Shown here: positions 4,142-64,000 of the stretch, one piece after another
Numbering within the stretch: the first letter of the stretch is position 1
Layout of the letters: each line of letters begins with the position of its first letter
Assembly (NCBI GenBank): GCA_964424265.1
Contig: CAYRHX010000001.1
Span: 128,498-192,497, forward strand
DNA: 64,000 nucleotides
Reading direction: 5' to 3'
Source: an uncultured Candidatus Saccharibacteria bacterium
GTDB taxonomy: Bacteria > Patescibacteriota > Minisyncoccia > Phycocordibacterales > UBA2100
Made by a program: the position numbers and the translations under genes
Notes under the pieces: generated by a model
Database searches by the model: none
What the model saw: the letters and a program-made list of their open reading frames with translations, nothing else
Told to the model about the DNA's origin: nothing

Positions 4142-4244
4142 GATGAATTGGAGTTGGTGAGATGGTATAGCTTTTAGTCGATTCCCGCAAATATTCAACC
4201 AACTCTTCAACCAACCAACAGCGAGGCAGGGTGATGTCTTGAGG

Positions 4245-4330
4245 AACCCCCGCAGAGCTTGGCTCGAGGATTGAGGATTTTTTCAGCAGGAAAAATCCGT
4301 GTTCAGAAAGGCAGCACCCCGCCGAGCGCC
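4245..4330. repeat. intergenic hairpin repeat element, copy 1 (core GAGGATTGAGGATTTTTTCAGCAGGAAAAATCCG)
   Basis: Near-identical core also at 39047-39080. A diverged copy sits at 12086-12113. The AU-rich 8-bp stem GGAUUUUU/AAAAAUCC has a CAGCAG loop. Confidence 0.6.
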
Positions 4331-4332
4331 CT

Positions 4333-4482
4333 CTACCATCCGCCCCTCTCCTCATCGGCATCCACTTCAGCAACAAGCGGATCGGCGAGCAAGTGCGCAT
4401 CATCGTCTTCGTCTACTTCGTCGAGCACGCTGTCCGGGACGACTTTGTCTTTGTCCTCTTCTTCGTCTTCATGATGAACCAT
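4333..4482 (-). CDS. hypothetical 49-aa highly acidic peptide (MVHHEDEEEDKDKVVPDSVLDEVDEDDDAHLLADPLVAEVDADEERGGW)
   Basis: Short ORF below the track cutoff, found by reading the minus strand. Lies immediately upstream of hairpin repeat copy 1. Coding status unproven. Confidence 0.2.
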   Translation of the reverse strand: MVHHEDEEEDKDKVVPDSVLDEVDEDDDAHLLADPLVAEVDADEERGGW

Positions 4483-4580
4483 AACGATAACTTCAATATA
4501 AATTTCTTATTAACACGAATATCTTACTGGCACACCGCCCGTGTGCAATATTGAAACGATACAAACTGTGAATAACTCAA

Positions 4581-10880: not shown

Positions 10881-10902
10881 TCCGCCAGTGTATACTAAAC
10901 GA

Positions 10903-52142: not shown

Positions 52143-52152
52143 AATATAGGGT

Positions 52153-53010
52153 TCATTGTACCGTGCCTGATTCGACTTTCATTTCGATAGTGTGCATATT
52201 GTTCGCGACAGCACCCCTAAATGCGTCGAGGCCCTGCCCAGCTATCTTCGGATCATTACCCGGATACGCCACGAGCCACTCATACTCGGTCACATCAACT
52301 ACCGCTGCCTGCGCTTTTTTCACCGCTTTCAGCGCTTCCTCATAGCGGCCAAGCTCGAAAAGCGCGGTCGCATACGAATTGAGCAACCACGGATTCTCCG
52401 GAAAGTATTTGAGTCCCCTTTCGATCGCATCGGCAGCTTTTTGGAATTTTTCCGATTTCAAAAGTACCCACGCCAAGTCGTTGATCGCGGCCCAATTGTT
52501 GGGATCAGATTTGAGGTAGATTTCATAATCCTTTGCAGACTGAGTGTACTCTCCCATATATCCTTCGATAAGCCCGCGAATATAGTACGAGGATGGGGAT
52601 GGCGAAGCGTTGAGATCAAGCTCTTTATTGATGTGCCACATCGCACTGTGGAAATCCCCTCTCAAAAACGCGACTCGTGCGAGTTGGTGGTGCACGTATG
52701 GAAGCCTCGGATCAAGCGCGAGTGACTTCTTATACCAATGCTCAGCCCGACCGATATCATATTGACGAGAGTTGAACGCTCGAAAGTGTATGTCGCCATA
52801 TTCGTACGCTCGCTGCGCAGAAGGCCGAATCGCAAACATCACATCATTGATCGCGCGTCTTGGAATGTCATAGACGAAAAAAAAGACTGCAACGACACAT
52901 GTTGTGAATAACGCGACTATAAAATGCCACTCCTTCGGAATTTCGTGGAATATAGATTGATAATTTCTCTTCATACTTAACTTGCGTAGAGAGACGAACG
53001 TACCAAACAT
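52153..53010 (-). CDS. membrane-anchored tetratricopeptide-repeat protein
   Basis: N-terminal TM, then several TPR-like 34-aa repeats (W/LG/Y/A/F/A/P pattern). Confidence 0.7.
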   Translation of the reverse strand: MFGTFVSLRKLSMKRNYQSIFHEIPKEWHFIVALFTTCVVAVFFFVYDIPRRAINDVMFAIRPSAQRAYEYGDIHFRAFNSRQYDIGRAEHWYKKSLALDPRLPYVHHQLARVAFLRGDFHSAMWHINKELDLNASPSPSSYYIRGLIEGYMGEYTQSAKDYEIYLKSDPNNWAAINDLAWVLLKSEKFQKAADAIERGLKYFPENPWLLNSYATALFELGRYEEALKAVKKAQAAVVDVTEYEWLVAYPGNDPKIAGQGLDAFRGAVANNMHTIEMKVESGTVQ

Positions 53011-53070
53011 CTAGCAAATGCGTCTCTTTCCAGCGACATACTGCTCGCTGGAGTCGTAGATATCTGGACT

Positions 53071-54279
53071 TTACATTGCTCCATTCATTACATTGGGGTC
53101 GTAATATATCTTATCCGATTTATGCGAGACAAGGTCGATACATTCATACGTCCTGTAAAAAGGAAGCGTCTTGCATATATCGTGAAGGGCTTGTATGTAC
53201 AACTCATTACCCCTTGATCGGTCAATGGAATAGGCAATCCTAGTCGCAACTACCGCCGTACACATTACTCGTTCTGCAGGACTGCTCGTTTCAGCACACA
53301 TTCCACTCACATCTTCATACTGTACGGCCCTCGTGGCACGACCTGCAATAAACTTGACGCACGCCATTCGATAGCGGTCGTTTTCAATCTGTTTGCAGTA
53401 ACGCATATTCTTAGTGAAATCATCTGGAGTCAGATTAAAATTCTCAAAAAACGCAGAGTGTTGTCCATAACATGCAACTTTGTATTTTTCATCTACAGAA
53501 TCACATACTTTAAACGTCATTCGCCCGTCTTTTACCTCGACCATGTCTCGTGTCGCGAAATCTTGTGCCATCTCCATAAACACTCCCATATAACATGAGT
53601 AGTTCTTTACAGGATCGCTGGTGACATTGTCGCATACATAGAGAGCGTCGTCGGTCGCATATTCTAATTGGACAAACGCTGCATGCCCCATGCCATGGAA
53701 GCAATCGATCGCATTTTTCAGCCCCGGTTCCTTGCACACATTCGAAAGTATCTTCACCAACATTTCTTTATCGTTCGTCTGTTTAGAGTACTCTTCTATC
53801 ACGCCGTGAAAATACCCGTTGCCACACGTGGATACATTCTTGAAGTAGGCATCTTCAGACATCGTCGCAAAGGCTTTCCCGATGTCTCCTTTGTTAACTT
53901 GCAACTGCGCATGCCCAATGCCGTGTGATACATAGTGGCAATCTTCAACGAAGCTTTTACTCTCCTTTTGCAAAAGCGCGAGATGCGAGAATGATCTCCT
54001 AACACCGTGCGTAAGCGTGTATTCGATATAAAAATCCCTTAGACAGTCTTGTGTTCTCTTATTCGCAAGGGCGCCTCGTGTCTGTTTGCATTTGTTGATA
54101 TGCTCCCATTCAGCGTCAGTGATGGCGATACTGCCTACAACCGATTCTTGAGCAGTAATCCTGGAATAGTAGTAAGCGAGACTCTCCTTGGGGACGAAAG
54201 TCCGATAACAGTAGCCCGATAAAATACCCACCACTAGGAGGCCGAGCACGACTACCCACTTGCTGACCTGCTTGAACAT
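53071..54279 (-). CDS. membrane-anchored Cys/His-rich protein with repeated C..HGxGHA motifs (paralog A)
   Basis: N-terminal TM. CHYVSHGIGHA, CGNGYFHGVIEE, CFHGMGHAA, CYMGVFME. Paralogous to 55891..57126. Confidence 0.6.
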   Translation of the reverse strand: MFKQVSKWVVVLGLLVVGILSGYCYRTFVPKESLAYYYSRITAQESVVGSIAITDAEWEHINKCKQTRGALANKRTQDCLRDFYIEYTLTHGVRRSFSHLALLQKESKSFVEDCHYVSHGIGHAQLQVNKGDIGKAFATMSEDAYFKNVSTCGNGYFHGVIEEYSKQTNDKEMLVKILSNVCKEPGLKNAIDCFHGMGHAAFVQLEYATDDALYVCDNVTSDPVKNYSCYMGVFMEMAQDFATRDMVEVKDGRMTFKVCDSVDEKYKVACYGQHSAFFENFNLTPDDFTKNMRYCKQIENDRYRMACVKFIAGRATRAVQYEDVSGMCAETSSPAERVMCTAVVATRIAYSIDRSRGNELYIQALHDICKTLPFYRTYECIDLVSHKSDKIYYDPNVMNGAM

Positions 54280-54336
54280 GATCGTATACTACCACTCTCG
54301 AATCAGAGGACGTGAGTCAGCCTAATGCAATATGCG

Positions 54337-55584
54337 CTAGATCTTGAGACCCTCTGCTGAGAGAAAATCCCGAAATTGCGCATCTTGTTTTGCAATTTCC
54401 AACATATCCTGACGAGCGAGATCCCGTGACCCTCCGGACGTTTTTAGTATTTGAATATAGTCTGTAAATAATCTCCTCATTTCTTGATTATATTGAAATT
54501 TCGTCTTAAAGCCTTCTATGTCCCTCAGAACACGTGAGACGTCATGATTTACAACTTTATCGTTGGCATTAAAGAGAAACGCTGCGTAATTCACATCCAA
54601 GATTACCTTAGAAAATAAGAGGATGTCCTCGTCGGAAAGGATGTTGGCTGCAATAGATGCGTAAGCCTGATCGAAAGATTGTTTTGCTTGATCTTCCGTA
54701 ACGATATCAAATCGAGCAAGTATCCCGACCCCTAATGCATAGTCGACGAGCGGTCTTACGTCATTTTCGGATTTTGAGTTCGTAAGTTTAGTTGTCGAAG
54801 CGGTGGGAAATATTCGCATGAGCTCCAAGCTCTCATCGACAATTTTCGACTTTAGGCCAAGGTCTTCGACTACCCCCTGGCGATAGAGTAACTGGGCGAG
54901 GCTAAGAATCTTTATGCTGACCATGTAATTATCGCGCGGCAAGTCATCACGACTAAAAAGATGGTCATTTATATAGAGCGTCGATGCAATGCGCTTATCT
55001 GTGGAGTACTTCTGGATAAGGGTTTTCAATTGCGGTTCATTCGCGAAACGAGAGTCTAAGAATGAATTCGGGTCAATGTTGTAGATGAAATTGATTACAT
55101 AAACGTAGAATCTTCGCAAATATCTTGGGTTTCTTTTGTCTTTCTGAGCCGCTTCGGCGATACTAAAGATGCCATCGTAAAGTCCATCGTACGCCTCGAC
55201 CATCATCGCCTTTCTTTTTATCGGATCACTCGTATTGGTAAACGCAACGGAAGCGAGTTTTTTGTAGTACATGGCTCTTTTAAACAACAATTCAGTCTCG
55301 GTATCAACTCCTGCAGAATTCTTCAGGTCCACCTCCATCTTCGCCAACTCCTCCTCGAGGTACTTATACTTCGTACCCGTCTCCGTCCCTTGAAGATTTC
55401 TGAAAGTATCGCTAGTAGGAATACGACTATTGATGAAATCACTTGTAACGATACTCTGTAAATCATCCAGGGAGACTTCCCGCGTAATACTAGACTGCGA
55501 CACGATGTGATACGCGAATCCCGCCACACCCACAAGGATGGCGATGATCGCAATGTATATTGATATTCTTGGAGAATTATTCAT
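54337..55584 (-). CDS. hypothetical membrane-anchored protein
   Basis: N-terminal TM then a 390-aa helical-looking domain. No recognisable motifs. Confidence 0.5.
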   Translation of the reverse strand: MNNSPRISIYIAIIAILVGVAGFAYHIVSQSSITREVSLDDLQSIVTSDFINSRIPTSDTFRNLQGTETGTKYKYLEEELAKMEVDLKNSAGVDTETELLFKRAMYYKKLASVAFTNTSDPIKRKAMMVEAYDGLYDGIFSIAEAAQKDKRNPRYLRRFYVYVINFIYNIDPNSFLDSRFANEPQLKTLIQKYSTDKRIASTLYINDHLFSRDDLPRDNYMVSIKILSLAQLLYRQGVVEDLGLKSKIVDESLELMRIFPTASTTKLTNSKSENDVRPLVDYALGVGILARFDIVTEDQAKQSFDQAYASIAANILSDEDILLFSKVILDVNYAAFLFNANDKVVNHDVSRVLRDIEGFKTKFQYNQEMRRLFTDYIQILKTSGGSRDLARQDMLEIAKQDAQFRDFLSAEGLKI

Positions 55585-55613
55585 GCGACCACAAATATGA
55601 GCATCGCTCGTGA

Positions 55614-55886
55614 CTACTCAGAACTGTCAGAGCTAGCACCGGCCCCACAGTCACTACTACCAGAGTCAGAGTCGGAGTCGCCACCGGTGCCACCAGAAAC
55701 GTCGCCAGCAGTGCCGCCAGCAGTGCCGCCAGCATCTGCTGAGGCTGTCTGTGTATCAAAGTCGAGTAAAATAGAGTGCTTCCTTGAAGCGTCATCCGTC
55801 TTTATCGAGATGAAAAAACCCACGATGAGCGCTGCCCCCGTTAGGATTCCGAATCGGACCAGCTTGGAGAGTTTGCGAACATTCAT
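55614..55886 (-). CDS. small membrane-anchored peptide with Gly/Ser/Asp-rich acidic tail
   Basis: MNVRKLSKLVRFGILTGAALIVGFFISIK... then GGTAGGTAGDVSGGTGGDSDSDSGSSDCGAGASSDSSE. Sits between the two Cys/His-rich paralogs. Confidence 0.4.
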   Translation of the reverse strand: MNVRKLSKLVRFGILTGAALIVGFFISIKTDDASRKHSILLDFDTQTASADAGGTAGGTAGDVSGGTGGDSDSDSGSSDCGAGASSDSSE

Positions 55887-55890
55887 ACCA

Positions 55891-57126
55891 TTACAGCCAT
55901 GCTACCAAGTGATACCACTTTGACAACTCATCAACTGTAGAGAACCGCAAATCTTTTTCAGATGTAAAGAAAAGGCGACTCCTATCGACAAAGACGAGAT
56001 GCTTGCATTCTCGCGCATAGAGAGGATTGAGCGTATCGCACACATACTTCACAACGGATTGATAATCCTCACTTTTCCGAGCACTGTCCATTGAACCTCC
56101 GATTCTATCTGCCATCACTGCAGTACACATGACACGCTCTTGAGCAGAAGTGATATTAAGGCACATCTCATATATTTCCTTGTAGTGGACCAACCTTACT
56201 GCCCTGATCGCAAAGAGCTTGACACAAGCCATACGATTGAGACCGTCTCCAATTTGCTTGCAGAAACCAATATTCCTCGTGTAATTTTTCCCTTCTTTCG
56301 AATACGACTGAAAGAATGAGGATTGCTCCAAATAACATGCCGGTTGGTATTTTTTCTCCAATGAATCACACAGGACGAAACTCATTTTTTGATTTTCCAC
56401 GCGGACTGCATCCTTAAATTCTTGACCATACTCCATAAAACCGCCCGTGTGACATCCGAATACACGGTCGGGTCTCTGTGAAATCCGATCACAAACGTAC
56501 ACCATGTCTTCAACACTGTAATCGGTCTGGATCATTGCCGCATGCCCTACTCCATGAAAACAGCCTCCGGCGTTAGAAATCTCTTTGTTATTACAAATGG
56601 GACGAAGAACCGTTACGAGATCATCTCTGTCTGCGACATCTTTTGCCATTTCTTCAATCACGCCGTGAAAGAAACCATTTCCGCATGTGACCACATTTTT
56701 GAAATAACCCCCAGACGACATGAACGTATACGCCTTATATGGATCGTCGCCGCTTAGACGAAAGACGGCATGTCCAATACCATGAGAAATATAGTGGCAG
56801 CTCGAGAGCAACTCGGGGCGCTCTTTTTGTAATCGCGCAAGATGCGCGAAGGCCCTTTCACCCCCCTGCTCCATAGCATACGTATCGTAAAAACTACGCA
56901 TACACTCCTCCACCCTACTTCCTCCCGATTTGACTTTCTGACACCGATTGATTTTCTCTAGATCTTCCGCTGTGACCTTTACGTCATCTATGATCTTCTC
57001 CTGATTTTCAATAATCGAATAGTAGCGAGCTATTTCTGCTTTCTTTATGTGCTGAGAGTACTGGAGTGCCGCGAAAGTACCGATTATTACAAAAGCCACA
57101 AAGGCAATTTCTCTTCTACTAAGCAT
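55891..57126 (-). CDS. membrane-anchored Cys/His-rich protein with repeated C..HGxGHA motifs (paralog B)
   Basis: CHYISHGIGHA, CGNGFFHGVIEE, CFHGVGHAA, CHTGGFME. Collinear with paralog A. Confidence 0.6.
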   Translation of the reverse strand: MLSRREIAFVAFVIIGTFAALQYSQHIKKAEIARYYSIIENQEKIIDDVKVTAEDLEKINRCQKVKSGGSRVEECMRSFYDTYAMEQGGERAFAHLARLQKERPELLSSCHYISHGIGHAVFRLSGDDPYKAYTFMSSGGYFKNVVTCGNGFFHGVIEEMAKDVADRDDLVTVLRPICNNKEISNAGGCFHGVGHAAMIQTDYSVEDMVYVCDRISQRPDRVFGCHTGGFMEYGQEFKDAVRVENQKMSFVLCDSLEKKYQPACYLEQSSFFQSYSKEGKNYTRNIGFCKQIGDGLNRMACVKLFAIRAVRLVHYKEIYEMCLNITSAQERVMCTAVMADRIGGSMDSARKSEDYQSVVKYVCDTLNPLYARECKHLVFVDRSRLFFTSEKDLRFSTVDELSKWYHLVAWL

Positions 57127-57167
57127 ACGACTTCCTGCGCAAGAGGATACGTATATAATAACACTGT

Positions 57168-58574
57168 ATGGTGTCCACCCTTAGGGAGAGATATTATCGA
57201 CTGTTTGCAATTCATGAGATCGAAGGGAGTGCGATTTTACAGCTCCTCTTTTATGTCATCAGCCTCTCATTTTTTGTCACGTTTTATGGGTGGGTTGAGA
57301 GAGGCTTGATTAGCATCACAACATTCGAAATCGGGACTCATATTTGTCCGCCATACTTCCCTTCGTGCGGAAATCTTTACTTCTTGGAAGCGCTTCCGTA
57401 CGGCTATAGCCAGAGCGCTTTTTACGTATTCCTTTTTCTCGTTCTCGGCTACGGCGTGTATTCCGCATACCGAAGGGATTGGGTGTCGGCCCATGCGGCA
57501 TTGTTACTGTGTCTCGTCTGGAAGATAATCTGGGCCTTTGTTCTGACGTACGGCGTAACGGGAAATTTCGACTATTATGACATGGCGTTTGCCTTCCTCT
57601 TGCTCTTCGCGCGAGAAAAAGAATACTTCGCGAAAGTCACGTTTGTATTCTTCTATGTACTCGCATCAAGTATAAAAATCGGAGACGGATGGATCTTCGC
57701 AAACTACTTCAACGGACTCTTCACCTCATCACCCATCTTCGGGCCCGCCTACTTACCCGCTTTTACCAACCTGCTCATCGTGATGCAAATGGTCGGCTGC
57801 TGGCTCCTGTTGTCGAAAAACAAGATCGTGCAGCGAAGCGCACTCGTATACTTCCTCCTCTTCCATATCTATTCGGGAATAATCGTCAACTACCGCTATA
57901 TCACTGTTTCCGTACCAACGCTCTTCGTCCTTTTCTCAAATCCGAGCGAATTTCACGTAAAACGAATAAACAGGACCACGCTCTTTGGATACCTTTTTTT
58001 GCTCTTCCTTCTTTGCAGCCAGCTTATTGCAATCCTTACCCCAGGAGATCAGAAAAAGACCTTGGAGGGCAATTACTATGGGCTGTATATGTTTGAGGCA
58101 AATCATCAATGCATTTCAGAAACGGCCATCTATCGCAAAGACGCGGAGCCTGTCGTGACGAAGCGCGAAAATCATGTCGCCAACAATCGCTGCGACCCAT
58201 ATCGATATTGGTTCCCGCTTACAACCCTGTGCGCGCGCGACGCGAGTGTTGAGCGAATAGCGTGGACCTTTGACCATTCTATCAACGGTGGCGCGTACGA
58301 ACGTATCGTAGACGTGGAAGACGCGTGCACGCTCACCTATCGGGCAATCGGCCATAACGAATGGATACAGATAGACCAGCCGAAAATCTTGGATATACCC
58401 GTATACAAAACGGGGTTTGCGAATCCTCTCGACTCGCGAATACAGGTATCTGCCGTGCCCATAAAGAATGAACCCTTACTTGAAGACATTACAACAGCTT
58501 ATTGGGCATTGTGGATCACGTCGCTCTCGTTTGCCTTTGGGGCACTTGCGTACGCGCACGTTAAAAGACAATGA
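57168..58574 (+). CDS. polytopic integral membrane protein (at least 8 TM) with Cys-containing C-terminal extracytoplasmic domain; possibly HTTM/VKGC-like
   Basis: Highly hydrophobic 468-aa product; Trp/Tyr-rich TM helices. The family guess is unverified. Confidence 0.55.
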   Translation: MVSTLRERYYRLFAIHEIEGSAILQLLFYVISLSFFVTFYGWVERGLISITTFEIGTHICPPYFPSCGNLYFLEALPYGYSQSAFYVFLFLVLGYGVYSAYRRDWVSAHAALLLCLVWKIIWAFVLTYGVTGNFDYYDMAFAFLLLFAREKEYFAKVTFVFFYVLASSIKIGDGWIFANYFNGLFTSSPIFGPAYLPAFTNLLIVMQMVGCWLLLSKNKIVQRSALVYFLLFHIYSGIIVNYRYITVSVPTLFVLFSNPSEFHVKRINRTTLFGYLFLLFLLCSQLIAILTPGDQKKTLEGNYYGLYMFEANHQCISETAIYRKDAEPVVTKRENHVANNRCDPYRYWFPLTTLCARDASVERIAWTFDHSINGGAYERIVDVEDACTLTYRAIGHNEWIQIDQPKILDIPVYKTGFANPLDSRIQVSAVPIKNEPLLEDITTAYWALWITSLSFAFGALAYAHVKRQ

Positions 58575-60193
58575 GCACGATCCGAGACGAGCTCAAGACA
58601 CTCATTGAACAGCGAGTGTTCTCCCGCTACAAAGACCTTGGCGAAGAAAAATGGATTTTCGATTTCCGCACCGTGAGCATGACCCGTGAGTTCATGGATC
58701 TGTATTCGCATGCTTTCTTCGAACACTTCAAAGGAGAAAAGGACGTCCAGATATGCGGACTTGAATCTGCGTCTATCCCTCTCGTCACGACACTCGTTTA
58801 TGCGTCGGAAGCGTTTGATGTAAAAGCAAACGGGCTTTTCATACGGAAAGGAAGAAAGAAGCACGATCTCCATAAGATTATTGAGGGTACGCCAAACAAA
58901 CAGCCCGTAATCCTCGTCGACGACATACTGAACACGGGGAAATCTATTGAAAAACAAATTGAAGTTTTAAAGAACGCCGGACTCACGGTCAGCGGCATAT
59001 TCTGCCTCGTGCGATTTCGAGACGAGTCGTTTTATGGTTTTTTGACCAAAGGTGAGATACCACTCACATCACTCTTCGAACTCAACGACTTCAAATCATC
59101 CCTCAACATCGAAAACCTTCAGAGAAAGAAAGAACTTCAGTCGCTCTCCTTCACCTACAAATGGGGATTCACTATTCCCGCCGATCTCGTCAACTATAAG
59201 AACGTCGCCCCGAAATCCGCGCCCGTGATATATCGAGATACGATACTTTTCGGCACGGACTCCGGCATATTCTATTGTTTGGATAAACGCACGGGAGACA
59301 CAATATGGACGTACAAAATCCTGTTTGGTGATCGTGGGAAAATGATCCATTCCTCCCCCGTCGTCCACAAGGACACCGTATACTTCGGCGCATACGACGG
59401 CAATTTCTACTCACTTGATGCGCGCACGGGAAAAAGAAAGTGGGTGTACATGGAGGCAGACTGGATAGGGTCTTCTCCTTGTGTCTCTGCAAAAGATAAT
59501 CTCGTATACGTCGGCCTGGAATTTGGCTTATGGAAAAAGAGGGGGGGCATAGTGGCACTAGACGCGAATACAGGCAAAGAAAAGTGGCGCGACACCCACA
59601 TCGGCCTCACGCACTGCTCACCATATGTCTCTCTAAAAAATAACCAGCTCTACTGCGGATCAAACGACGGGATCCTGCGAATATACAACGCACAAACGGG
59701 CGAGCATCTCAAGAATCACGTAATCGGTGCGCCCATACGACTCTCGTTTTCTGAAAATGATGCCGGCACCAAGATCGTCTTCGGGGCATTCGATAAGCAC
59801 TGCCATGTTGTCGACACGACCACGCTTGAGATCGTGGATAAACTCGAGACGCTCGAAGCAATATATTCCACTCCTCTGTGGATCGGCGAAACTATCATCG
59901 TCAATTCACTCGACAAAAGAGTCTATTCGTACGACGCGGTACATAAGAAACTGAACTGGACCTTTCTGACCAAAGGCAGGATCTTTAGTAATCCCGTATT
60001 AATTAAAGGATCGCTATTTGTAGGCTCAAATGACGGGGCTTTATATAAATTAGATCCAGAGACAGGCAAAGAAATCGGGCACATACAATTCCCCGAAAGA
60101 ATCGTGAACAAGGTGCTGTTCGATGAAGAAACTGGCTACACGTACATCCCTACGTTTGCCAACGAACTCCACTGTCTTTCCATTGTTCCATGA
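58571..60193 (+). CDS. fusion protein: N-terminal type I phosphoribosyltransferase-like domain + C-terminal PQQ-like beta-propeller repeats
   Basis: PRTase motif PVILVDDILNTGKSI. At least five repeats of the PQQ/BamB type (FYCLDKRTGDTIWTY, FYSLDARTGKRKWVY, VALDANTGKEKWRD, LRIYNAQTGEHLKNH, LYKLDPETGKEIGHI). Start overlaps the upstream gene stop (ATGA). Confidence 0.7.
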   Translation: MSTIRDELKTLIEQRVFSRYKDLGEEKWIFDFRTVSMTREFMDLYSHAFFEHFKGEKDVQICGLESASIPLVTTLVYASEAFDVKANGLFIRKGRKKHDLHKIIEGTPNKQPVILVDDILNTGKSIEKQIEVLKNAGLTVSGIFCLVRFRDESFYGFLTKGEIPLTSLFELNDFKSSLNIENLQRKKELQSLSFTYKWGFTIPADLVNYKNVAPKSAPVIYRDTILFGTDSGIFYCLDKRTGDTIWTYKILFGDRGKMIHSSPVVHKDTVYFGAYDGNFYSLDARTGKRKWVYMEADWIGSSPCVSAKDNLVYVGLEFGLWKKRGGIVALDANTGKEKWRDTHIGLTHCSPYVSLKNNQLYCGSNDGILRIYNAQTGEHLKNHVIGAPIRLSFSENDAGTKIVFGAFDKHCHVVDTTTLEIVDKLETLEAIYSTPLWIGETIIVNSLDKRVYSYDAVHKKLNWTFLTKGRIFSNPVLIKGSLFVGSNDGALYKLDPETGKEIGHIQFPERIVNKVLFDEETGYTYIPTFANELHCLSIVP

Positions 60194-60300: not shown

Positions 60301-60606
60301 TCAGAATGGGATCCCCATCCTAACCCTCCTTTCCCCCTCGTCGCACCACTCGCGTGGATTCTTTTTATCCTGGTTTGCCCGCAGGCAACCAGAATAGGAC
60401 CAGTTGGCATGGCCCTGTAGTTCCGGCCGCGCGGCCGGAACTACAATACCCTTCCCGGGGGGTCGTATAGTCCTCGCCTCCGGCGAGTCCCAATGGGGCC
60501 TCGCCGAAGGCGCCACCTGACCCCCGGTGGCGGGGGGGGTCTGGCCATAGGCCAGACCCGTCATCATGACGAGGGCGAAGAGCCCCGCCATAATTCTCTT
60601 TTTCAT
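60301..60606 (-). CDS. hypothetical signal-peptide ORF in an atypically GC-rich segment
   Basis: MKKRIMAGLFALVMMTGLAYGQ then Pro/Ala/Gly/Arg-rich sequence. Overlapped by a second-frame ORF. May not be coding. Confidence 0.3.
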   Translation of the reverse strand: MKKRIMAGLFALVMMTGLAYGQTPPATGGQVAPSARPHWDSPEARTIRPPGKGIVVPAARPELQGHANWSYSGCLRANQDKKNPREWCDEGERRVRMGIPF

Positions 60607-60840: not shown

Positions 60841-61221
60841 TTACATCATCTTCACGTCGATTGAGACGCCAGATGGAAGGTCGATATTGGTGAGAGCTTC
60901 GATCACCTTTGGCTCTGGATTCAAAATATCGATCATGCGCTTATGGATACGCATTTCAAATTGCTCGCGAGAATCTTTGTCGATGAAAGCAGCGCGGTTG
61001 ACCGTGTATTTCTTGATATCAATGGGGAGCGGGACGGGGCCGATGACTTCTGCGTTGTGCCGTGCAGCGACATCGATGATTTGCTTCACCGCACCATCAA
61101 GGACACCGTGCTCATAGGCACGCACGCGAATACGCAAGCGGCTTGGGCCCGCAGCTTTTTTGACAGCACGTGGAGCACGAGCCTTCACAGGAGCCTTGGT
61201 GACCTTTGATTCCGCTGTCAT
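60841..61221 (-). CDS. rpsJ: 30S ribosomal protein S10 (with basic N-terminal extension)
   Basis: LRIRVRAYEHGVLDGAVKQIIDVAARHNAEVIGPVPLP...FEMRIHKRMIDILNPEPKVIEALTNIDLPSGVSIDVK collinear with S10. Confidence 0.85.
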   Translation of the reverse strand: MTAESKVTKAPVKARAPRAVKKAAGPSRLRIRVRAYEHGVLDGAVKQIIDVAARHNAEVIGPVPLPIDIKKYTVNRAAFIDKDSREQFEMRIHKRMIDILNPEPKVIEALTNIDLPSGVSIDVKMM

Positions 61222-61301
61222 AGAACCCAGAGAGTATGCACTAGGGCCCCCAAAAAAGCAACCATTTGCACCCCTGCCGGCAAAACCAGCGATGTTGTGC
61301 G

Positions 61302-61649
61302 TTACTTACTTATATTCTGCCACTCCGACATTTCCATGACTTCGATTTTAGCTTCCGCCTCGAGTTCGTCGAAATGAGGACTATCTTGCATAAGCTTCGC
61401 CGCCGCATCGTGGGATTCCGCTTTCACAATCATGTAGCCGCCGATATCGTTGTGAGTATCGGTGACACCCCGCTTGGTCACTTGTTTCACTTTGCTTAAG
61501 GGAGCGCCGGGATCCACGATGTCGGCCTTATGCGCCTCCATCCACGAGTTCCACGCTTCCATCCCCTTCCTTTGTTCTTCTTTCGACATGCTCATCCACT
61601 TTTTAAATTGCTCCGGACTCGCCCTATACAGTACGAAAAACTTTTTCAT
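61302..61649 (-). CDS. hypothetical small protein (possible YciI/Dabb-like fold)
   Basis: 115 aa, MKKFFVLYRASPEQFKKWM... Family call tentative. Confidence 0.45.
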   Translation of the reverse strand: MKKFFVLYRASPEQFKKWMSMSKEEQRKGMEAWNSWMEAHKADIVDPGAPLSKVKQVTKRGVTDTHNDIGGYMIVKAESHDAAAKLMQDSPHFDELEAEAKIEVMEMSEWQNISK

Positions 61650-61745
61650 ATGATTTTTATTAAGGAATAAGTTTGTTGATTATACACCCGCACGGAGGAG
61701 AACTGAACAGCACCAGAAGACCCACCTCACAGTGGGTTTCTCTAG

Positions 61746-62732
61746 CTAGACCAACGAGATGAGGTCTTTCGGATCTTTTAGGACGGGGACGATACCCAAT
61801 TCGGTGCCGACACCGTTCTCGTGAAGCATGCGGAGCATTGAGAAGTCAGCGAGCGCGAAGCCTACGGAATCGAACACAATGATGCGATCTTTCTTGGTAC
61901 GCCCTGGCTTTGTACCCTGTACGATCTCCCAGACCTCGTCGTACGCAACAGTTCCCTTGAGGTTCTGGATCTCCCCTTCGCGCTTCGTTTGTTCGTAGAA
62001 TTCCACCACGATGCGACCATTGCGCATGACCTCTGGATCAAGTTCGGTTTTGCCTGGGCAATCTCCACCAATTGCGTTGATAAACAAGTGGTCATTCTCA
62101 GCTACGGAGGCGTACTTGAAGAGTCTCACTTTCTTCTTCTCGCAGATACACGTCGTGAGAATATCAACGCCTCGTACAACCTCATCGCCATTCTTGCACG
62201 CAACGAGCGTCACGCCACTCCCTTGCAGATTGCGTGCGAATTTTTTCATCGCTTTCGGATCGCGATCGTAGTAGCGAATAGTAGAAATGGGAAACACGCC
62301 GCGCATCGCATGTACTTGGAATTCTGATTGCGCACCGGTGCCGATAAGTCCGAGCACGCGCGAGTCCGCATGTGCGAGGTGTTTTGCGGCGATGGCAGAC
62401 ATGGCCGCAGTGCGTATTGCCGTGAGAATTGTCATGTCGGCTATGAGCTGCGGGTAGCCAGTCGCGATATCGGCGAGCATGCCGAGCGCAACGATCGAGA
62501 GTTTGCCTAGTGCAGGGTTACCAGGATGCGCATTCACGTATTTGTACGTGTAGTACTGATGATCGGCACATGGCATGAGCTCAAAAACTCCGTGCTTGTA
62601 ATGAGTCGCATGCCGAGCACTTTTCTTGAACGATTCCCACCGATGTAGGTCGGCTTCGAGATACGCGACACCCTTTTTGAAGAGCATATCGAGTTTTTGA
62701 CGAGAGATATCTGATGCAGTGACGATTTTCAT
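61746..62732 (-). CDS. ornithine cyclodeaminase/mu-crystallin family protein
   Basis: Rossmann LGLIGTGAQSEFQVHAM and overall OCD family layout. 328 aa. Confidence 0.8.
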   Translation of the reverse strand: MKIVTASDISRQKLDMLFKKGVAYLEADLHRWESFKKSARHATHYKHGVFELMPCADHQYYTYKYVNAHPGNPALGKLSIVALGMLADIATGYPQLIADMTILTAIRTAAMSAIAAKHLAHADSRVLGLIGTGAQSEFQVHAMRGVFPISTIRYYDRDPKAMKKFARNLQGSGVTLVACKNGDEVVRGVDILTTCICEKKKVRLFKYASVAENDHLFINAIGGDCPGKTELDPEVMRNGRIVVEFYEQTKREGEIQNLKGTVAYDEVWEIVQGTKPGRTKKDRIIVFDSVGFALADFSMLRMLHENGVGTELGIVPVLKDPKDLISLV

Positions 62733-62935
62733 AGGTTATGTGTGGGTTAGAAACTAAAAAAGCCCGCTTGCCGCGGACTTTGTCTGATGGAATAGGAGAC
62801 AAATTAGAAACGCGGCTGGTACATCGAATACAACTGCGGGACTGGCACCACATTTTCGTTGGAAATGTATATCGTATACGCATTCATACCTGTATTTTTG
62901 AGACTATCACGGGTATTTTTATCGTCAAATATCCA

Positions 62936-62966
62936 AAAAGAAAACCCGCCTTGCGGCGGGTCTTCT
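62936..62966 (-). terminator. rho-independent terminator downstream of tuf
   Basis: Minus-strand GAAGACCCGCCGCAAGGCGGGTTTTCTTTTT hairpin plus T-tract. Confidence 0.5.
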
Positions 62967-62988
62967 TGGCTCGAACCTTTGTTCGAAA

Positions 62989-64000
62989 TTAAGCAACAAC
63001 TTTTGTTACTACACCTGCGCCTACCGTTTTTCCTCCTTCGCGAATGGCGAAGCGCATCTGATCTTCGAGTGCGATTGGAGCAACCAATTTCACTTTGAAG
63101 GTGACGGTGTCGCCTGGCATAACCATCTCCACTCCCTCCTTGAGCGTTACCTCTCCGGTAACGTCTGTGGTGCGAACGTAGAATTGTGGTTTGTAGCCAG
63201 TGAAGAACGGTGTGTGACGACCGCCCTCTTCCTTGGTCAAAATGTAGACTTCGGATTCGAATTCGGTGTGCGGCTTCACTGAGGCTGGCTTGCAGAGCAC
63301 TTGTCCGCGGTGCACATCTTCTTTCTTTGTGCCGCGGAGAAGCACGCCCGCGTTGTCGCCTGCCTGACCTTGCTGGAGTGATTTGTTGAACATTTCGACA
63401 CCGGTGACTGTCGTCTTCGCCGTATCCTTGATACCGACGATTTCGATTTCTTCACCAACCTTCACGACGCCGCGCTCAATACGGCCCGTAACAACGGTGC
63501 CTCGGCCTTCGATCGAAAACACGTCTTCGATGGGCATAAGGAACGGCTTGTCGAGTTCACGCACTGGCTGTGGGATGTATTCGTCGAGCGCTTTCACAAG
63601 CTCCATGATCTTTGCGCTCCATTCATTGCCTGGCTCAGGCGACTCAAGCGCTTTCAAGCCAGAACCTCGGATGACCGGAGTATTTTTGCCGTCAAAGCCT
63701 TGCTTCTCGAGGAGCTCGCGGATCTCCTCTTCGACGAGATCGATGAGGTCTTTGTCGTCCACCTGATCTACTTTGTTCAAGAATACGATGACCTTGGGCA
63801 CTCCCACCTGCTTTGCAAGGAGGATGTGTTCACGCGTCTGAGGCATCACGCCGTCGGACGCTGCGACCACGAGGATAGCGCCGTCCATCTGGGCGGCACC
63901 CGTGATCATGTTTTTAATGTAGTCGGCGTGTCCGGGAGCGTCGACGTGCGCGTAGTGACGAGCTGGCGTCTCATACTCAGAGTGCGAGAGCGAAATCGTA
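62989..64000 (-). CDS. tuf: elongation factor Tu (3' portion; N-terminus beyond the window end)
   Basis: [34 protein letters not shown]...; domains II/III of EF-Tu. The ORF runs off the window end. Confidence 0.9.

What the first reader, a model, noticed from the sequence alone, without database searches (positions are those of the whole stretch)
57168..60193. Translationally coupled pair: polytopic membrane protein + PRTase-PQQ beta-propeller fusion
The 468-aa multi-TM protein has a Cys-containing extracytoplasmic tail and possibly an HTTM/VKGC-like fold. Its stop overlaps (ATGA) the start of a 540-aa protein whose N-terminal ~170 aa carry a type I phosphoribosyltransferase signature (VILVDDILNTGKSI). 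The rest is a PQQ/BamB-type beta-propeller. A PRPP/nucleotide-binding PRTase domain fused to a PQQ propeller is not a standard architecture. The pair lies on the plus strand, opposite to all surrounding genes, inside the S10-L3 island, near an acidic Gly/Ser/Asp-rich small peptide gene and Cys/His-rich paralogs. The pair could form a membrane-associated modification or transport module.
Basis: partly seen in the sequence, partly recalled or inferred. Interest (0 to 1): 0.6.

Follow-up and report, generated by a model that had tools for sequence, protein, structure and literature searches.

The report
VKGC-like membrane enzyme plus PRTase-propeller
An uncultured Patescibacteria genome carries, inside its ribosomal-protein gene block, an unrecognised relative of the vitamin K-dependent carboxylase overlapping a phosphoribosyltransferase-propeller fusion gene; both belong to a conserved, unstudied island that probably tailors small acidic surface peptides.

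Summary
ORF A (57168-58574, 468 aa) and ORF B (58571-60193, 540 aa) overlap by ATGA on the plus strand between S10 and L3.

ORF A matches no Pfam or NCBIfam model. Its confident AlphaFold model matches only human gamma-glutamyl carboxylase (E 3e-9), and the family keeps the catalytic Lys218 equivalent (K170) but not His160.

ORF B is a soluble orotate-PRTase-like domain with a conserved PRPP motif and catalytic loop, fused to an 8-bladed BamB-type propeller. It is not a PQQ dehydrogenase.

The linkage is real but asymmetric. About 75% of Patescibacteria ORF A genes lie within 10 kb of ORF B, in several orientations. Only about 15% of ORF B genes have ORF A nearby.

ORF B is a core gene of a Patescibacteria island with a TPR protein, a c6/p415 protein, small TM-anchored "AHADAP" acidic peptides, and often a SagD-SagB azole maturase operon ending in ORF B. 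In the window ORF A takes that operon slot.

Best reading: ORF A is an accessory outer-face peptide or protein-tailoring enzyme, and ORF B is a cytoplasmic PRPP-using partner. The chemistry is inferred, not shown.

Verdict: new variant of known kinds, moderately high interest.

The parts
57168..58574 (+). ORF A, 468 aa. A polytopic membrane protein of the HTTM / vitamin K-dependent gamma-carboxylase superfamily. It has a TM domain, an outer-face beta-rich four-Cys domain (residues 291-434) and a C-terminal TM helix.
   Evidence: ORF. No Pfam or NCBIfam hit. AF2 model pLDDT 91.5, pTM 0.90. Foldseek top 14 hits are all GGCX. Family invariants include C60, C67, N133, K170, W175, H233, H313, Q314, C315, C342 and C387. 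The collinear hhalign alignment pairs K170 with K218 and W175 with W223.
58470..58562 (+). The C-terminal TM helix of ORF A (residues about 435-465). It corresponds to the separate roughly 67-aa gene c2 that follows ORF A in 47 of the A-recruited loci analysed (38 CPR-type, 8 proteobacterial).
   Evidence: The helix is present only in long-form family members. The c2 cluster is in 47 loci. The c2 HMM matches only this helix (per-domain E 8e-5 to 0.02). c2 fills the A-B gap in other loci.
58571..58574 (+). ATGA stop/start overlap between ORF A and ORF B.
   Evidence: Sequence read directly. The same -4 overlap occurs only in the synteny twin L007.
58571..59125 (+). ORF B N-terminal domain (residues about 1-185), a type I PRTase of the orotate-PRTase type.
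   Evidence: Pfam PF00156 and TIGR00336. The best PDB sequence matches are OPRTases (2yzk, E 1.3e-8). hhalign against E. coli PyrE gives probability 86%, with R92/K93/K96/H98 pairing with R99/K100/K103/H105 and D117-D118 with D124-D125. R92, K93, E105, G106, D117, D118 and N121 are invariant.
59150..60193 (+). ORF B C-terminal 8-bladed beta-propeller (residues about 194-540), BamB/YxaL/ACSF4 type, cytoplasmic.
   Evidence: Pfam Beta-prop_ACSF4 E 6e-46. AF2 model pLDDT 90.5 with eight four-strand blades. Foldseek best hits are Cake8 (E 5e-30) and BamB (about 1e-23). No TM segment or signal sequence.
57151..57158 (+). TATATAAT, a -10-like box about 10 nt upstream of ORF A's ATG. It suggests a near-leaderless transcript in the 41-bp divergent gap.
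   Evidence: Sequence read directly. The consensus scan did not report it because no -35 element is present. This is an inference only.
55614..55886 (-). A 90-aa member of the 'AHADAP' small-peptide family: an N-terminal TM anchor, the motif ASADAG, then an acidic Gly/Ser/Asp tail. It is a candidate substrate or precursor of the island.
   Evidence: It is the only hit of the motif-plus-composition filter in the 64-kb window. The family was found in 23 A-recruited and 34 B-recruited loci, 62 hits among 14,946 ORFs screened.
54337..55584 (-). A 415-aa N-terminally anchored helical protein, a divergent member of the c6 family. c6 is the commonest immediate neighbour of the peptide genes.
   Evidence: The c6 HMM hits it at E 4e-9. 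The peptide gene is adjacent to c6 for 32 of 62 peptides. No Pfam, NCBIfam or PDB match.
52153..53010 (-). A membrane-anchored TPR protein, the most frequent neighbour of ORF B.
   Evidence: Pfam TPR families. It lies near ORF B in 22 of 28 loci with long flanks, and 37 of 80 overall.
55891..57126 (-). Cys/His-rich paralog, 411 aa, N-terminal TM, divergent from ORF A.
   Evidence: Cluster c12 is in 17 of 64 CPR-type A-recruited loci, 18 loci counting the window itself. No family or PDB match.
53071..54279 (-). Second Cys/His-rich paralog, 402 aa.
   Evidence: Same cluster c12. No family match.

Best explanation
ORF A is a very divergent member of the HTTM / vitamin K-dependent gamma-carboxylase (GGCX) superfamily. 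Like GGCX, it has a TM catalytic domain with a conserved Lys base at the outer membrane face, an outer-face peptide-binding-like domain, and a closing TM helix that is a separate subunit (c2) in other lineages.

ORF B is a soluble cytoplasmic enzyme or adaptor. It combines an orotate-PRTase-like PRPP-binding domain, with an intact catalytic loop, and an 8-bladed BamB-type propeller that serves as a docking or substrate-binding platform.

Both belong to a Patescibacteria-specific island that often lies in the S10-L3 gap. Its recurrent elements are:
- ORF B;
- a TM-anchored TPR protein;
- the c6/p415 protein;
- small TM-anchored peptides with an AHADAP-type motif and an acidic Gly-rich tail;
- optional tailoring enzymes, chiefly a SagD-SagB azole maturase operon ending in ORF B.

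In this window the SagD-SagB slot is taken by ORF A. The most likely working model has three parts:
1. The island matures exported acidic peptides or envelope proteins.
2. ORF A is an accessory outer-face tailoring enzyme. It uses GGCX-type Lys-initiated chemistry with a hydroquinone-type cofactor, and performs carboxylation or another base-driven or oxidative modification.
3. ORF B performs or organises a PRPP-dependent step on the cytoplasmic side and is shared between alternative tailoring enzymes.

What is shown: the folds, the conserved residues, the topology and the gene linkage. What is inferred: the substrate, the cofactor, the reaction and any physical A-B contact.
For: ORF A fold and residues:
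- The AF2 model is confident (pLDDT 91.5). Foldseek finds only GGCX, with 14 hits at E 3e-9 to 1e-6 and TMq 0.49-0.58.
- A collinear 327-column profile alignment pairs C60 with C99, N133 with N159, K170 with K218, W175 with W223, F232-H233 with F286-H287, Y307 with Y395, S371-I372-N373 with S472-I473-N474, and W399 with W501. Of these ORF A residues, all but Y307, S371, I372 and N373 are invariant in 38 family members; S371, I372 and N373 are nearly invariant and Y307 is not on either list.
- The roles of the GGCX residues come from PMC12589487 and PMC13486548.
- Topology puts these residues and the four-Cys domain on the outer face.

ORF B:
- Conserved PRPP loop and flexible loop.
- No TM segment or signal sequence.
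- BamB-like 8-blade propeller.

Linkage:
- ORF B lies within 10 kb of ORF A in 48 of 64 CPR-type loci. 27 pairs are directly adjacent: 14 co-directional A to B, 10 divergent, 2 convergent and 1 B to A. The operon form is A-c2-B.
- ORF B's commonest neighbours are TPR 37, SagD 36, c6 30 and SagB 27 of 80 loci.
- SagB lies directly upstream on the same strand in 11 loci.
- SagB passes the TIGR03605 cutoff, and the YcaO is SagD-type at E 9e-53.
- The peptide family is in 23 plus 34 loci and in the window.

Precedents for bacterial HTTM proteins in peptide or natural-product tailoring: MloH, linaridin clusters, and HTTM-DCC1 with DUF5819.
Against: - Sequence-level support for HTTM membership is weak. 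There is no PF05090 hit for any member, no PDB profile hit, and hhalign gives only E 0.015 and probability 2.9%.
- GGCX His160, K217 and R436 are not conserved, and the D263 equivalent is unclear. Glu gamma-carboxylation as such is therefore doubtful.
- Patescibacteria are generally thought to lack quinone biosynthesis, and many are thought to be anaerobes (general knowledge, not tested here). The cofactor and the oxidant are unexplained.
- ORF B mostly occurs without ORF A nearby (12 of 80), and ORF A occurs without ORF B in Proteobacteria. Neither strictly needs the other.
- The peptide genes are tied to c6 rather than to A or B, and no peptide was found in the proteobacterial ORF A loci.
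- OPRTase K73 is replaced by Ala67 and the K26 region does not align, so the PRTase substrate is unknown.
- No physical interaction was tested.
Confidence: 0.42

Rival explanations
1. ORF A is a quinone-linked thiol-disulfide oxidoreductase, a functional analogue of DsbB or VKOR, as suspected for the MauE, DoxX and HTTM-DCC proteins. It would oxidise exported Cys-rich island proteins (the Cys/His-rich paralogs and Cys-bearing peptides) rather than carboxylate anything. ORF B would be only an operon neighbour or a regulator.
For: - An invariant C60-X6-C67 pair sits in the first outer loop, and four conserved Cys lie in the outer domain.
- One family member hits Pfam MauE/DoxX.
- DsbA-like and rhodanese genes recur in the island, in 10 and 12 loci.
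- A DCC1-like thiol oxidoreductase lies next to the pair in L004/L005, L011 and L012.
- HTTM-DCC1 fusions are known.
- Cys/His-rich paralogs flank ORF A in the window and co-occur in 17 of 64 CPR-type A-recruited loci.
Against: - The best-conserved features are the GGCX catalytic Lys motif and the GGCX-like linker and lumenal domain, not a CXXC redox motif.
- The DCC1-like, DsbA-like and CH-rich genes are present in only a minority of loci.
- In GGCX the Cys99 equivalent forms a structural disulfide.
Confidence: 0.2
2. There is no functional coupling. ORF B is simply the organism's orotate or nucleobase phosphoribosyltransferase for nucleotide salvage, carrying a propeller for oligomerisation or localisation. 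ORF A and the other island genes are packed next to it because the S10-L3 gap is a permissive insertion site.
For: - The closest families by sequence are OPRTases, and JGI names family members 'orotate phosphoribosyltransferase'.
- The catalytic loop is intact.
- ORF B is mostly found without ORF A.
- A bona fide PurD sits near ORF B in 11 of 80 loci.
- The island's GC content is 46.3%, against 51.5% for the window.
Against: - All OPRTase equivalog scores are far below their cutoffs, for example 62 against 106.8 bits. K73 is lost.
- 27 of the 48 co-located A-B pairs are directly adjacent, in four different orientations and across distant CPR lineages.
- ORF B is the last gene of SagD-SagB-ORF B operons.
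- The propeller carries many invariant non-structural residues, including D297, W298, S301, S302, P303, E317, R470, Q506 and R510.
Confidence: 0.15
3. ORF A is a substrate-free quinol epoxidase or lipid-remodelling enzyme, like the truncated GGCX-like epoxidases of giant viruses or the Leptospira orthologue. It would act on host-derived quinones or lipids in host-dependent bacteria. The island context would be incidental.
For: - The family occurs without the island in Micavibrio-like, Rickettsiales, Bdellovibrio-like and other host- or prey-dependent lineages.
- The catalytic Lys and several quinone-pocket residues are kept, but the Glu-pocket His160 is not.
- There is a giant-virus precedent.
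Against: - Unlike the viral epoxidases, ORF A retains the TMD-PBD linker motif and the whole lumenal, peptide-binding-like domain, which is the most conserved part of the family.
- In CPR it strongly prefers the peptide-maturation island.
Confidence: 0.12

Closest known systems
[quoted passage not shown]
   Same: - Overall fold: TM domain, lumenal domain and a late TM helix.
- Equivalents of the K218 base, W223, F286, N159, Y395, C99, the SIN...RI.D motif and W501.
- Outer-face active-site topology.
   Different: - 13-18% identity, and no PF05090 hit.
- About 290 residues shorter.
- His160, K217 and R436 are not conserved, and the 374-418 linker is shortened.
- The organism likely has no quinone pathway.
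- No propeptide or Gla-type substrate was recognised.
Bacterial HTTM proteins: MloH (malonomycin carboxylase), HTTM-DCC1 with DUF5819 pairs, SdpB, and the linaridin-cluster HTTM proteins (CrdG/CypH type)
   Same: HTTM-superfamily membrane enzymes that sit in peptide or natural-product tailoring clusters, sometimes with a small TM partner that completes the GGCX-like fold. Here that partner is c2 or the fused C-terminal helix.
   Different: - Those proteins are recognised by Pfam HTTM. ORF A is not.
- None of them is reported with a PRTase-propeller partner.
- The DCC1-like gene is only an occasional neighbour here.
- No direct sequence comparison with these proteins was possible with the tools available.
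Orotate phosphoribosyltransferase (PyrE; PDB 2yzk, 1sto, 1oro)
   Same: Type I PRTase core, the PRPP loop (VDDxxNxG against VDDVITAG), flexible-loop R/K/K equivalents, and a probable Arg156 equivalent.
   Different: - Below every OPRTase equivalog cutoff.
- K73 is replaced by Ala, and the N-terminal K26/SG..S region does not align.
- Fused to a 350-aa propeller.
- Encoded in peptide-maturation operons rather than pyr operons.
BamB, YxaL and the AASDH (ACSF4) C-terminal 'PQQ-like' 8-bladed propellers
   Same: 8-bladed PQQ-repeat propeller. These are the best structural and Pfam matches.
   Different: - Cytoplasmic, with no lipoprotein or secretion signal.
- The top 50 Foldseek PDB matches are BamB, YxaL, designed propellers, ODA16 and tetrathionate hydrolase, with no PQQ dehydrogenase among them.
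- Fused to a PRTase domain.
- Like AASDH, it is attached to a nucleotide-using catalytic domain, and its role is unknown.
TOMM / linear azole peptide systems (SagBCD, microcin B17 McbABCD)
   Same: Sister loci carry SagD-type YcaO and SagB dehydrogenase genes next to Gly/Ser/Cys-rich small precursor-like peptides.
   Different: - No SagC or E1-like protein was seen. ORF B occupies the third operon position.
- The peptides have an N-terminal TM anchor and an AHADAP motif, and many have 0-3 Cys.
- The window itself lacks SagB and SagD.

Membership tests
HTTM / vitamin K-dependent gamma-carboxylase superfamily (Pfam PF05090 plus PF22777) | Sequence match to the HTTM profile (PF05090) at the gathering threshold | tested here: not met
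   No PF05090 hit for ORF A, for 38 family members at E up to 10, or for 10 distant members. Only 2 of 38 members give a weak PF22777 lumenal-domain hit (E 0.007).
HTTM / vitamin K-dependent gamma-carboxylase superfamily (Pfam PF05090 plus PF22777) | GGCX-like three-dimensional fold (TM domain plus lumenal domain) | tested here: met
   AF2 model pLDDT 91.5. The top 14 Foldseek PDB hits are all GGCX, at E 2.9e-9 to 1.4e-6, probability 1.00 and 439-487 aligned columns. The next hit has E 0.79.
HTTM / vitamin K-dependent gamma-carboxylase superfamily (Pfam PF05090 plus PF22777) | Catalytic base Lys218 in the K-x-x-x-x-W motif at the lumenal membrane face | tested here: met
   Invariant K170 and W175 align with K218 and W223. 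They are predicted to lie on the outer face. The alignment itself has low statistical confidence (E 0.015).
HTTM / vitamin K-dependent gamma-carboxylase superfamily (Pfam PF05090 plus PF22777) | Glu-carboxylation residues (His160, R436) and the complete 374-418 motif | tested here: not met
   H160 aligns with F134 and R436 is not conserved. The linker motif is present but about 7 residues shorter (TLEGNxYGLYMFEANHQC).
HTTM / vitamin K-dependent gamma-carboxylase superfamily (Pfam PF05090 plus PF22777) | C99-C450 type disulfide linking the TM and lumenal domains | tested here: inconclusive
   Invariant C60 aligns with C99. C450 aligns one helical turn from the nearly invariant C355.
HTTM / vitamin K-dependent gamma-carboxylase superfamily (Pfam PF05090 plus PF22777) | Vitamin K hydroquinone-dependent epoxidase or carboxylase activity | not testable with these tools
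   This needs biochemistry.
Orotate phosphoribosyltransferase (PyrE, TIGR00336) / type I PRTase | Type I PRPP-binding loop (four hydrophobic residues, two acidic residues, xx-T/N-x-G) | tested here: met
   VILVDDILNTGKS. D117, D118 and N121 are invariant and G123 is nearly invariant. PF00156 scores 26.8 against a cutoff of 26.3.
Orotate phosphoribosyltransferase (PyrE, TIGR00336) / type I PRTase | Flexible catalytic loop R99/K100/K103 | tested here: met
   R92 and K93 (invariant) and K96 (nearly invariant) align with R99, K100 and K103.
Orotate phosphoribosyltransferase (PyrE, TIGR00336) / type I PRTase | PPi and orotate ligands K73 and K26, and the equivalog score cutoff | tested here: not met
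   K73 aligns with the nearly invariant Ala67, and the K26 region is not aligned. TIGR00336 scores 62.1 bits against a cutoff of 106.8, and all other OPRTase models are far below their cutoffs.
PQQ-dependent dehydrogenases (quinoproteins) | Family score cutoffs, periplasmic location, and closest structural similarity to PQQ enzymes | tested here: not met
   TIGR03075 scores 67.5 against a cutoff of 480. There is no signal peptide or TM segment. The top 50 Foldseek hits are designed propellers, BamB, YxaL, ODA16 and tetrathionate hydrolase, with no PQQ dehydrogenase.
BamB (outer-membrane protein assembly factor) | Lipoprotein signal, BAM-complex context, and the equivalog cutoff | tested here: not met
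   TIGR03300 scores 82 against a cutoff of 285. There is no signal sequence. Only the 8-bladed fold resembles BamB.
TOMM / SagBCD azole-peptide maturation system | SagD-type YcaO cyclodehydratase, SagB dehydrogenase and a precursor peptide in the locus | tested here: not met
   In the window there is no tblastn hit to the island's SagD or SagB representatives. Only the peptide (55614-55886) is present. Sister loci do meet this feature: SagB scores 126.6 against a cutoff of 78.4, and SagD gives E 9e-53 but is below its cutoff.
Known anti-phage defence systems (PADLOC) | Match to a defence-protein model | tested here: not met
   Only generic PRTase-motif hits, at E 0.001-0.008.

The most novel reading that the evidence does not exclude
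ORF B is a new kind of shared partner for peptide-tailoring machineries. Either it replaces the missing SagC-type leader-binding protein, or it is itself a PRPP-dependent peptide-modifying enzyme, and it serves either the cytoplasmic SagD/SagB pair or the membrane GGCX-like ORF A.

ORF A then carries out vitamin K-type, Lys-initiated chemistry, such as Asp or Glu carboxylation, on secreted AHADAP acidic peptides at the cell surface of episymbiotic bacteria that cannot make quinones. It would use a host-derived quinone or a cofactor generated by ORF B.

This would be the first Gla-like peptide modification system in Patescibacteria, and the first functional link between PRPP chemistry and a GGCX homolog.
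Probability: 0.1. Interest if true: 0.9.

Novelty: new variant of a known kind. Interest (0 to 1): 0.6.

Why it matters
- **An unclassified GGCX family.** The GGCX/HTTM superfamily has very few characterised bacterial members. This family has about 700 representatives at 50% identity, is invisible to Pfam and NCBIfam, and keeps both the catalytic Lys and the peptide-binding-like outer domain.
- **A cofactor puzzle.** The family is concentrated in host- or prey-dependent bacteria, including Patescibacteria, Micavibrio-like and Rickettsiales lineages. Patescibacteria are thought to lack quinones, which raises a concrete biochemical question about the cofactor.
- **An annotation risk.** The PRTase-propeller fusion is one of the commoner unexplained proteins of Paceibacterota. 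Some pipelines name it 'orotate phosphoribosyltransferase' or 'BamB', which could distort metabolic reconstructions.
- **A route to experiments.** Placing both genes in one conserved island, with a new family of TM-anchored acidic peptides and SagB/SagD, gives experimentalists a defined and testable candidate for a surface or secreted peptide system. Such a system could mediate episymbiont-host interaction.

Tried and rejected
- **Direct profile searches for ORF A.** Pfam and NCBIfam gave nothing. A permissive Pfam scan of 38 members gave only two weak VKGC_lumenal_dom hits. The A1 profile found nothing in PDB sequences.
- **Bridging through distant members.** Pfam scans of the most distant listed members of the exhaustive search gave no HTTM hit and a single MauE/DoxX hit.
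- **Profile-profile comparison with GGCX.** The vertebrate GGCX profile has low diversity because the last homolog search returned only vertebrate sequences at 71% identity or more. hhalign therefore gave a collinear but statistically weak alignment (E 0.015). I use it only for residue mapping, not as proof of homology.
- **ORF B as a PQQ quinoprotein.** Rejected.
- **DCC1-like thiol oxidoreductase as a regular third partner.** Rejected, because it is present in only L004/L005, L011 and L012.
- **ORF A and ORF B as mutually obligate partners.** Rejected by the reverse co-occurrence test: 12 of 80 loci, confirmed with an HMM.
- **AHADAP peptides as ORF A-specific substrates.** Weakened. The peptide genes are tied to c6 (32 of 62 adjacent) and are absent from the proteobacterial ORF A loci.
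- **Defence-system origin.** No support from PADLOC.
- **Neighbouring proteins.** PDB sequence searches for the Cys/His-rich paralog and for p415 gave nothing meaningful.
- **Literature.** Searches for the fusion, for PRTase with YcaO, and for YcaO in Patescibacteria found no description.

Full report
**Observation**

ORF listing confirms two plus-strand ORFs, 57168-58574 (468 aa, ORF A) and 58571-60193 (540 aa, ORF B). The large flanking ORFs at 46059-57126 and 60841-63909, and a small unannotated ORF at 60301-60606, are on the minus strand. The junction reads GACAATGAGC, an ATGA stop/start overlap. A TATATAAT box lies about 10 nt before ORF A's ATG, inside the 41-bp gap to the divergent 411-aa gene. 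The pair lies between S10 (60841-61221) and L3 (44842-45756). The stretch 52153-60193 has 46.3% GC, against 51.5% for the whole window. The best homologs carry Patescibacteria, Paceibacterota and Kaiserbacteria names.

**ORF A**

ORF A has no Pfam or NCBIfam hit, and none of the 120 listed homologs has a precomputed Pfam domain. The family is sizeable: 557 hits in the word-indexed search, and 706 representatives at E up to 1e-3 in the exhaustive search, of which 607 are at 1e-10 or better. An alignment of 38 members (A1) shows these invariant residues: C60, C67, N133, K170, W175, H233, E300-G301, M308-F309, H313-Q314-C315, R341-C342 and C387.

AlphaFold2 with A1 gave a confident model (pLDDT 91.5, pTM 0.90). 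Foldseek against the PDB returned 14 hits at E 2.9e-9 to 1.4e-6, and every one is human gamma-glutamyl carboxylase. They cover 439-487 alignment columns at TMq 0.49-0.58. The fifteenth hit has E 0.79.

Sequence-level support is weak:
- The A1 profile finds nothing in PDB sequences.
- Only 2 of 38 members touch VKGC_lumenal_dom (E 0.007).
- One distant member hits MauE/DoxX. From memory, not checked here, that family shares a Pfam clan with HTTM.

Its length and landmark residues checked out, and it proved 95% identical to a database GGCX. hhalign of A1 against a 15-sequence vertebrate GGCX profile gave E 0.015 and probability 2.9%, but the alignment is collinear over 327 columns.

| ORF A | GGCX | Conservation in A1 |
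|---|---|---|
| C60 | C99 | invariant |
| N133 | N159 | invariant |
| Y163 | Y211 | invariant |
| K170 | K218 | invariant |
| W175 | W223 | invariant |
| F232-H233 | F286-H287 | invariant |
| S236 | N290 | invariant |
| G305-L306-Y307 | G393-L394-Y395 | G305 nearly invariant; L306 and Y307 on neither list |
| H313-Q314 | H408-Q409 | invariant |
| S371-I372-N373 | S472-I473-N474 | nearly invariant |
| W399 | W501 | invariant |

According to the GGCX structure papers (PMC12589487; PMC13486548):
- K218 is the base that deprotonates the hydroquinone.
- W223 and F286 line the naphthoquinone pocket.
- N159 and Y395 help hold the Glu substrate.
- C99-C450 is a disulfide.
- Residues 374-418 are needed for carboxylation.

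ORF A keeps these features, with the linker in shortened form, but it lacks His160 (F134), K217 and R436. Helix positions and loop charges place C60/C67, N133, K170 and the four-Cys domain (291-434) on the outer face, as in GGCX.

The C-terminal TM helix exists only in long-form members. In 47 of the A-recruited loci analysed, a separate gene of about 67 aa with one TM helix (c2) follows ORF A. A c2 HMM matches only the C-terminal helix of the long forms (per-domain E 8e-5 to 0.02). The window's clade therefore probably fused c2 to ORF A. This would explain why the ATGA overlap is seen only here and in the twin locus L007, while other co-directional loci read A-c2-B.

**ORF B**

The N-terminal domain matches Pfam Pribosyltran (26.8 bits against a cutoff of 26.3) and TIGR00336 pyrE (E 5e-17, but 62 bits against a cutoff of 106.8). 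The C-terminal part matches Beta-prop_ACSF4 (E 6e-46), PQQ_2 and PQQ.

The best solved relatives of the N-terminal domain are orotate PRTases (2yzk E 1.3e-8; 1sto, 1oro and 1lh0 about 2e-5). R92/K93/K96/H98 pair with R99/K100/K103/H105, and D117-D118 with D124-D125. PyrE K73 falls on the nearly invariant Ala67, and the K26 region does not align. R92, K93, E105, G106, D117, D118 and N121 are invariant in 37 members at 41-64% identity. A working PRPP site is therefore likely, but the second substrate is unknown.

The AF2 model (pLDDT 90.5) shows eight four-stranded blades. The best Foldseek matches are designed 8-blade propellers, BamB, YxaL and tetrathionate hydrolase, with no PQQ dehydrogenase in the top 50. 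ORF B has no hydrophobic segment (maximum KD19 of 1.28), so it is cytoplasmic. The propeller carries many invariant polar and aromatic residues, such as D297-W298, S301-S302-P303, E317, R470, Q506 and R510. This suggests a specific binding site.

**Linkage starting from ORF A**

A scan of one genome per GTDB species with A1 gave 79 loci. Most are Patescibacteria (Paceibacterota, Kaiserbacteria, Nomurabacteria, Gracilibacteria, Altimarinota). Fifteen carry proteobacterial labels (Micavibrio and Micavibrionaceae, Rickettsiales, Caenarcanales, Pseudobdellovibrionaceae, Burkholderiales and others).

ORF B lies within the fetched flanks in 44 of 63 CPR-type loci by ORF clustering. Four more loci (L063, L068, L071, L080) show it by tblastn only, because my table-11 ORF calling or clustering failed there. 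I suspect, but did not test, an alternative genetic code in the Gracilibacteria-labelled loci. That makes 48 of 64.

Twenty-seven pairs are directly adjacent: 14 co-directional A to B, 10 divergent, 2 convergent and 1 B to A. Several negatives are short contigs, or second ORF A paralogs in genomes whose other copy is beside ORF B. None of the 15 proteobacterial loci has ORF B.

**Linkage starting from ORF B**

Three look-ups of ORF B homologs had already shown loci without ORF A. A metagenome scan with A2 gave 80 loci. ORF A is present in only 12 of them, and in only 4 of the 28 loci with at least 4 kb on both sides. An A1 HMM search gave the same 12.

ORF B's commonest neighbours among these 80 loci:

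| Neighbour | Loci of 80 |
|---|---|
| TM-anchored TPR protein (22 of the 28 long loci) | 37 |
| YcaO | 36 |
| c6, about 385 aa, N-terminally anchored and helical | 30 |
| Nitroreductase-family protein | 27 |
| PaaK/F390-synthetase-like adenylating enzyme | 14 |
| Rhodanese | 13 |
| ORF A | 12 |
| PurD | 11 |
| S10 | 10 |

NCBIfam identifies the YcaO as SagD-type (TIGR03604, E 9e-53, below its cutoff) and the nitroreductase as a SagB peptide dehydrogenase (126.6 bits against a cutoff of 78.4). SagB lies immediately upstream of ORF B on the same strand in 11 loci, with SagD upstream on the same strand in 13. SagD-SagB-ORF B operons are therefore common. The window has neither SagB nor SagD, and ORF A occupies that operon position. 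The linkage is real but asymmetric: ORF B is a core island gene, and ORF A (plus c2) is an accessory gene that preferentially sits beside it.

**The small peptides**

The window's 90-aa ORF (55614-55886, minus strand) is a member of a family that I defined by architecture: an N-terminal TM anchor, 20-30 residues, a motif [AV][HSNY]A[DE][AVT]P ('AHADAP'; ASADAG in the window), and then a 16-95 residue tail rich in Gly, Asp, Ser, Glu and Cys. It occurs in 23 ORF A-recruited loci and 34 ORF B-recruited loci. That is 62 hits among 14,946 ORFs screened, and only one hit in the 64-kb window.

The tails are always acidic and Gly-rich. Some are Cys-rich, like microcin B17, but many have 0-3 Cys. The peptide gene is most often adjacent to c6 (32 of 62). 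In the window it directly precedes the 415-aa ORF, which a c6 HMM recognises at E 4e-9.

The island therefore has two arms. One is peptide-c6-TPR. The other, divergent, arm is (SagD-SagB or ORF A-c2)-ORF B.

**Interpretation**

The folds, conserved residues, topology and gene linkage are shown by the evidence above. The rest is inferred. I propose:
- The island matures exported acidic peptides or envelope proteins.
- ORF A acts at the outer face with GGCX-type Lys-initiated chemistry.
- ORF B supplies a cytoplasmic PRPP-dependent or adaptor function that it shares between SagBD and ORF A.

Precedents for HTTM proteins in peptide or natural-product tailoring are MloH, linaridin clusters, and HTTM-DCC1 with DUF5819.

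The main weaknesses are:
- no sequence-level HTTM match;
- His160 is missing;
- there is no known quinone source in Patescibacteria (general knowledge, not tested here);
- ORF A is independent of ORF B in Proteobacteria;
- the peptides are tied to c6 rather than to ORF A or ORF B;
- the PRTase substrate is unknown.

The rival explanations are:
- a DsbB/VKOR-like thiol oxidase role for ORF A, based on the invariant C60-X6-C67 pair, the MauE hit, and the occasional DsbA-like, rhodanese and DCC1-like neighbours;
- ORF B as a plain salvage PRTase with no coupling to ORF A;
- ORF A as a substrate-free quinol epoxidase or lipid remodeller, like the giant-virus enzymes.

PADLOC gives no defence-system membership. 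No paper in the searchable library describes the fusion or the island.

**Verdict**

ORF A is a new, highly divergent family within a known superfamily. ORF B is an uncharacterised but widespread architecture. Their context, a conserved peptide-maturation-like island inside the ribosomal gene block of Patescibacteria, is the more interesting result. Novelty: new variant of a known kind. Interest: 0.6.

Noticed in passing
L043, L056, L059, L064 (ORF A match at about 10001-11200 or 4032-5231); window 57168-58574: In four Micavibrio-like alphaproteobacterial loci the ORF A homolog lies between rpoC and rpsL-rpsG-fusA, on the opposite strand. It is therefore again inside the rpoBC/str/S10 ribosomal superoperon, as in the CPR copies between S10 and L3, but without ORF B. 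Two apparently independent placements of one family in the ribosomal gene block are unexplained.
   Followed up: partly
window 55614-55886 (-); for example L030 7369-7698, L054 19643-20044, L149 4461-5265: A previously unnoticed small-protein family: a TM anchor, an 'AHADAP' motif (Ala-X-Ala, like a signal-peptidase site) and an acidic Gly/Asp/Ser/Cys tail. It gave 62 hits in CPR island loci and none in the proteobacterial loci.
   Followed up: yes
L085-L164, for example L085 18784-20313; absent from the window: SagD-type YcaO and SagB dehydrogenase genes form operons ending in the ORF B homolog, with no recognisable SagC or E1-like partner. This looks like an undescribed TOMM-like system in Paceibacterota, often in the S10-L3 gap.
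   Followed up: partly
window 46059-52142 (-): A giant 2027-aa secreted protein with Gly-rich blocks, repeated Cys modules and repeated units that looked CARDB-like on reading the sequence (not profile-tested). Its last 110 residues or so recur as part of small or mid-size proteins in at least 13 related loci, usually near the TPR gene.
   Followed up: partly
window 53071-54279 (-) and 55891-57126 (-): Two paralogous N-terminally anchored Cys/His-rich proteins with repeated HGxGH and CxHG motifs. They match no Pfam, NCBIfam or PDB family. They co-occur with ORF A in 17 of 64 CPR-type A-recruited loci (18 loci counting the window itself), and could be metal-binding or redox substrates.
   Followed up: partly
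window 52153-60193: The TPR-to-ORF B stretch has 46.3% GC, against 51.5% for the whole window. This is compatible with a mobile or compositionally distinct island.
   Followed up: no
L135 11620-12894, L107 8574-9848 and 9 other loci: A bona fide PurD (TIGR00877, 481 bits) lies within 3 kb of ORF B in 11 of 80 loci, in mixed orientations. It may hint at phosphoribosylamine or PRPP chemistry, or it may simply be a flanking gene in one lineage.
   Followed up: partly
L004 5894-6265 (-), L011, L012: A DCC1-like thiol-disulfide oxidoreductase gene sits beside the ORF A/ORF B pair in a few loci. This echoes the HTTM-DCC1 fusions reported elsewhere.
   Followed up: yes
L063, L068, L071, L080; also L009, L020, L025 and others (record titles): In L068, L071 and L080 (two labelled Gracilibacteria, one only 'bacterium'), ORF B is detectable only by tblastn, because my table-11 ORF calling or clustering failed. 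I suspect an alternative genetic code but did not test this. In L063 no ORF A ORF was called, although ORF B was found both ways. Several TPA MAG records that carry this CPR-type locus are titled 'Candidatus Saccharibacteria' or 'Methanosarcinales archaeon'. Those labels look unreliable.
   Followed up: no
window 60301-60606 (-): A 101-aa ORF with a signal-peptide-like N-terminus lies between ORF B and S10. It has no Pfam hit and no tblastn match in the A-recruited loci L001-L084. It may not be a real gene.
   Followed up: no
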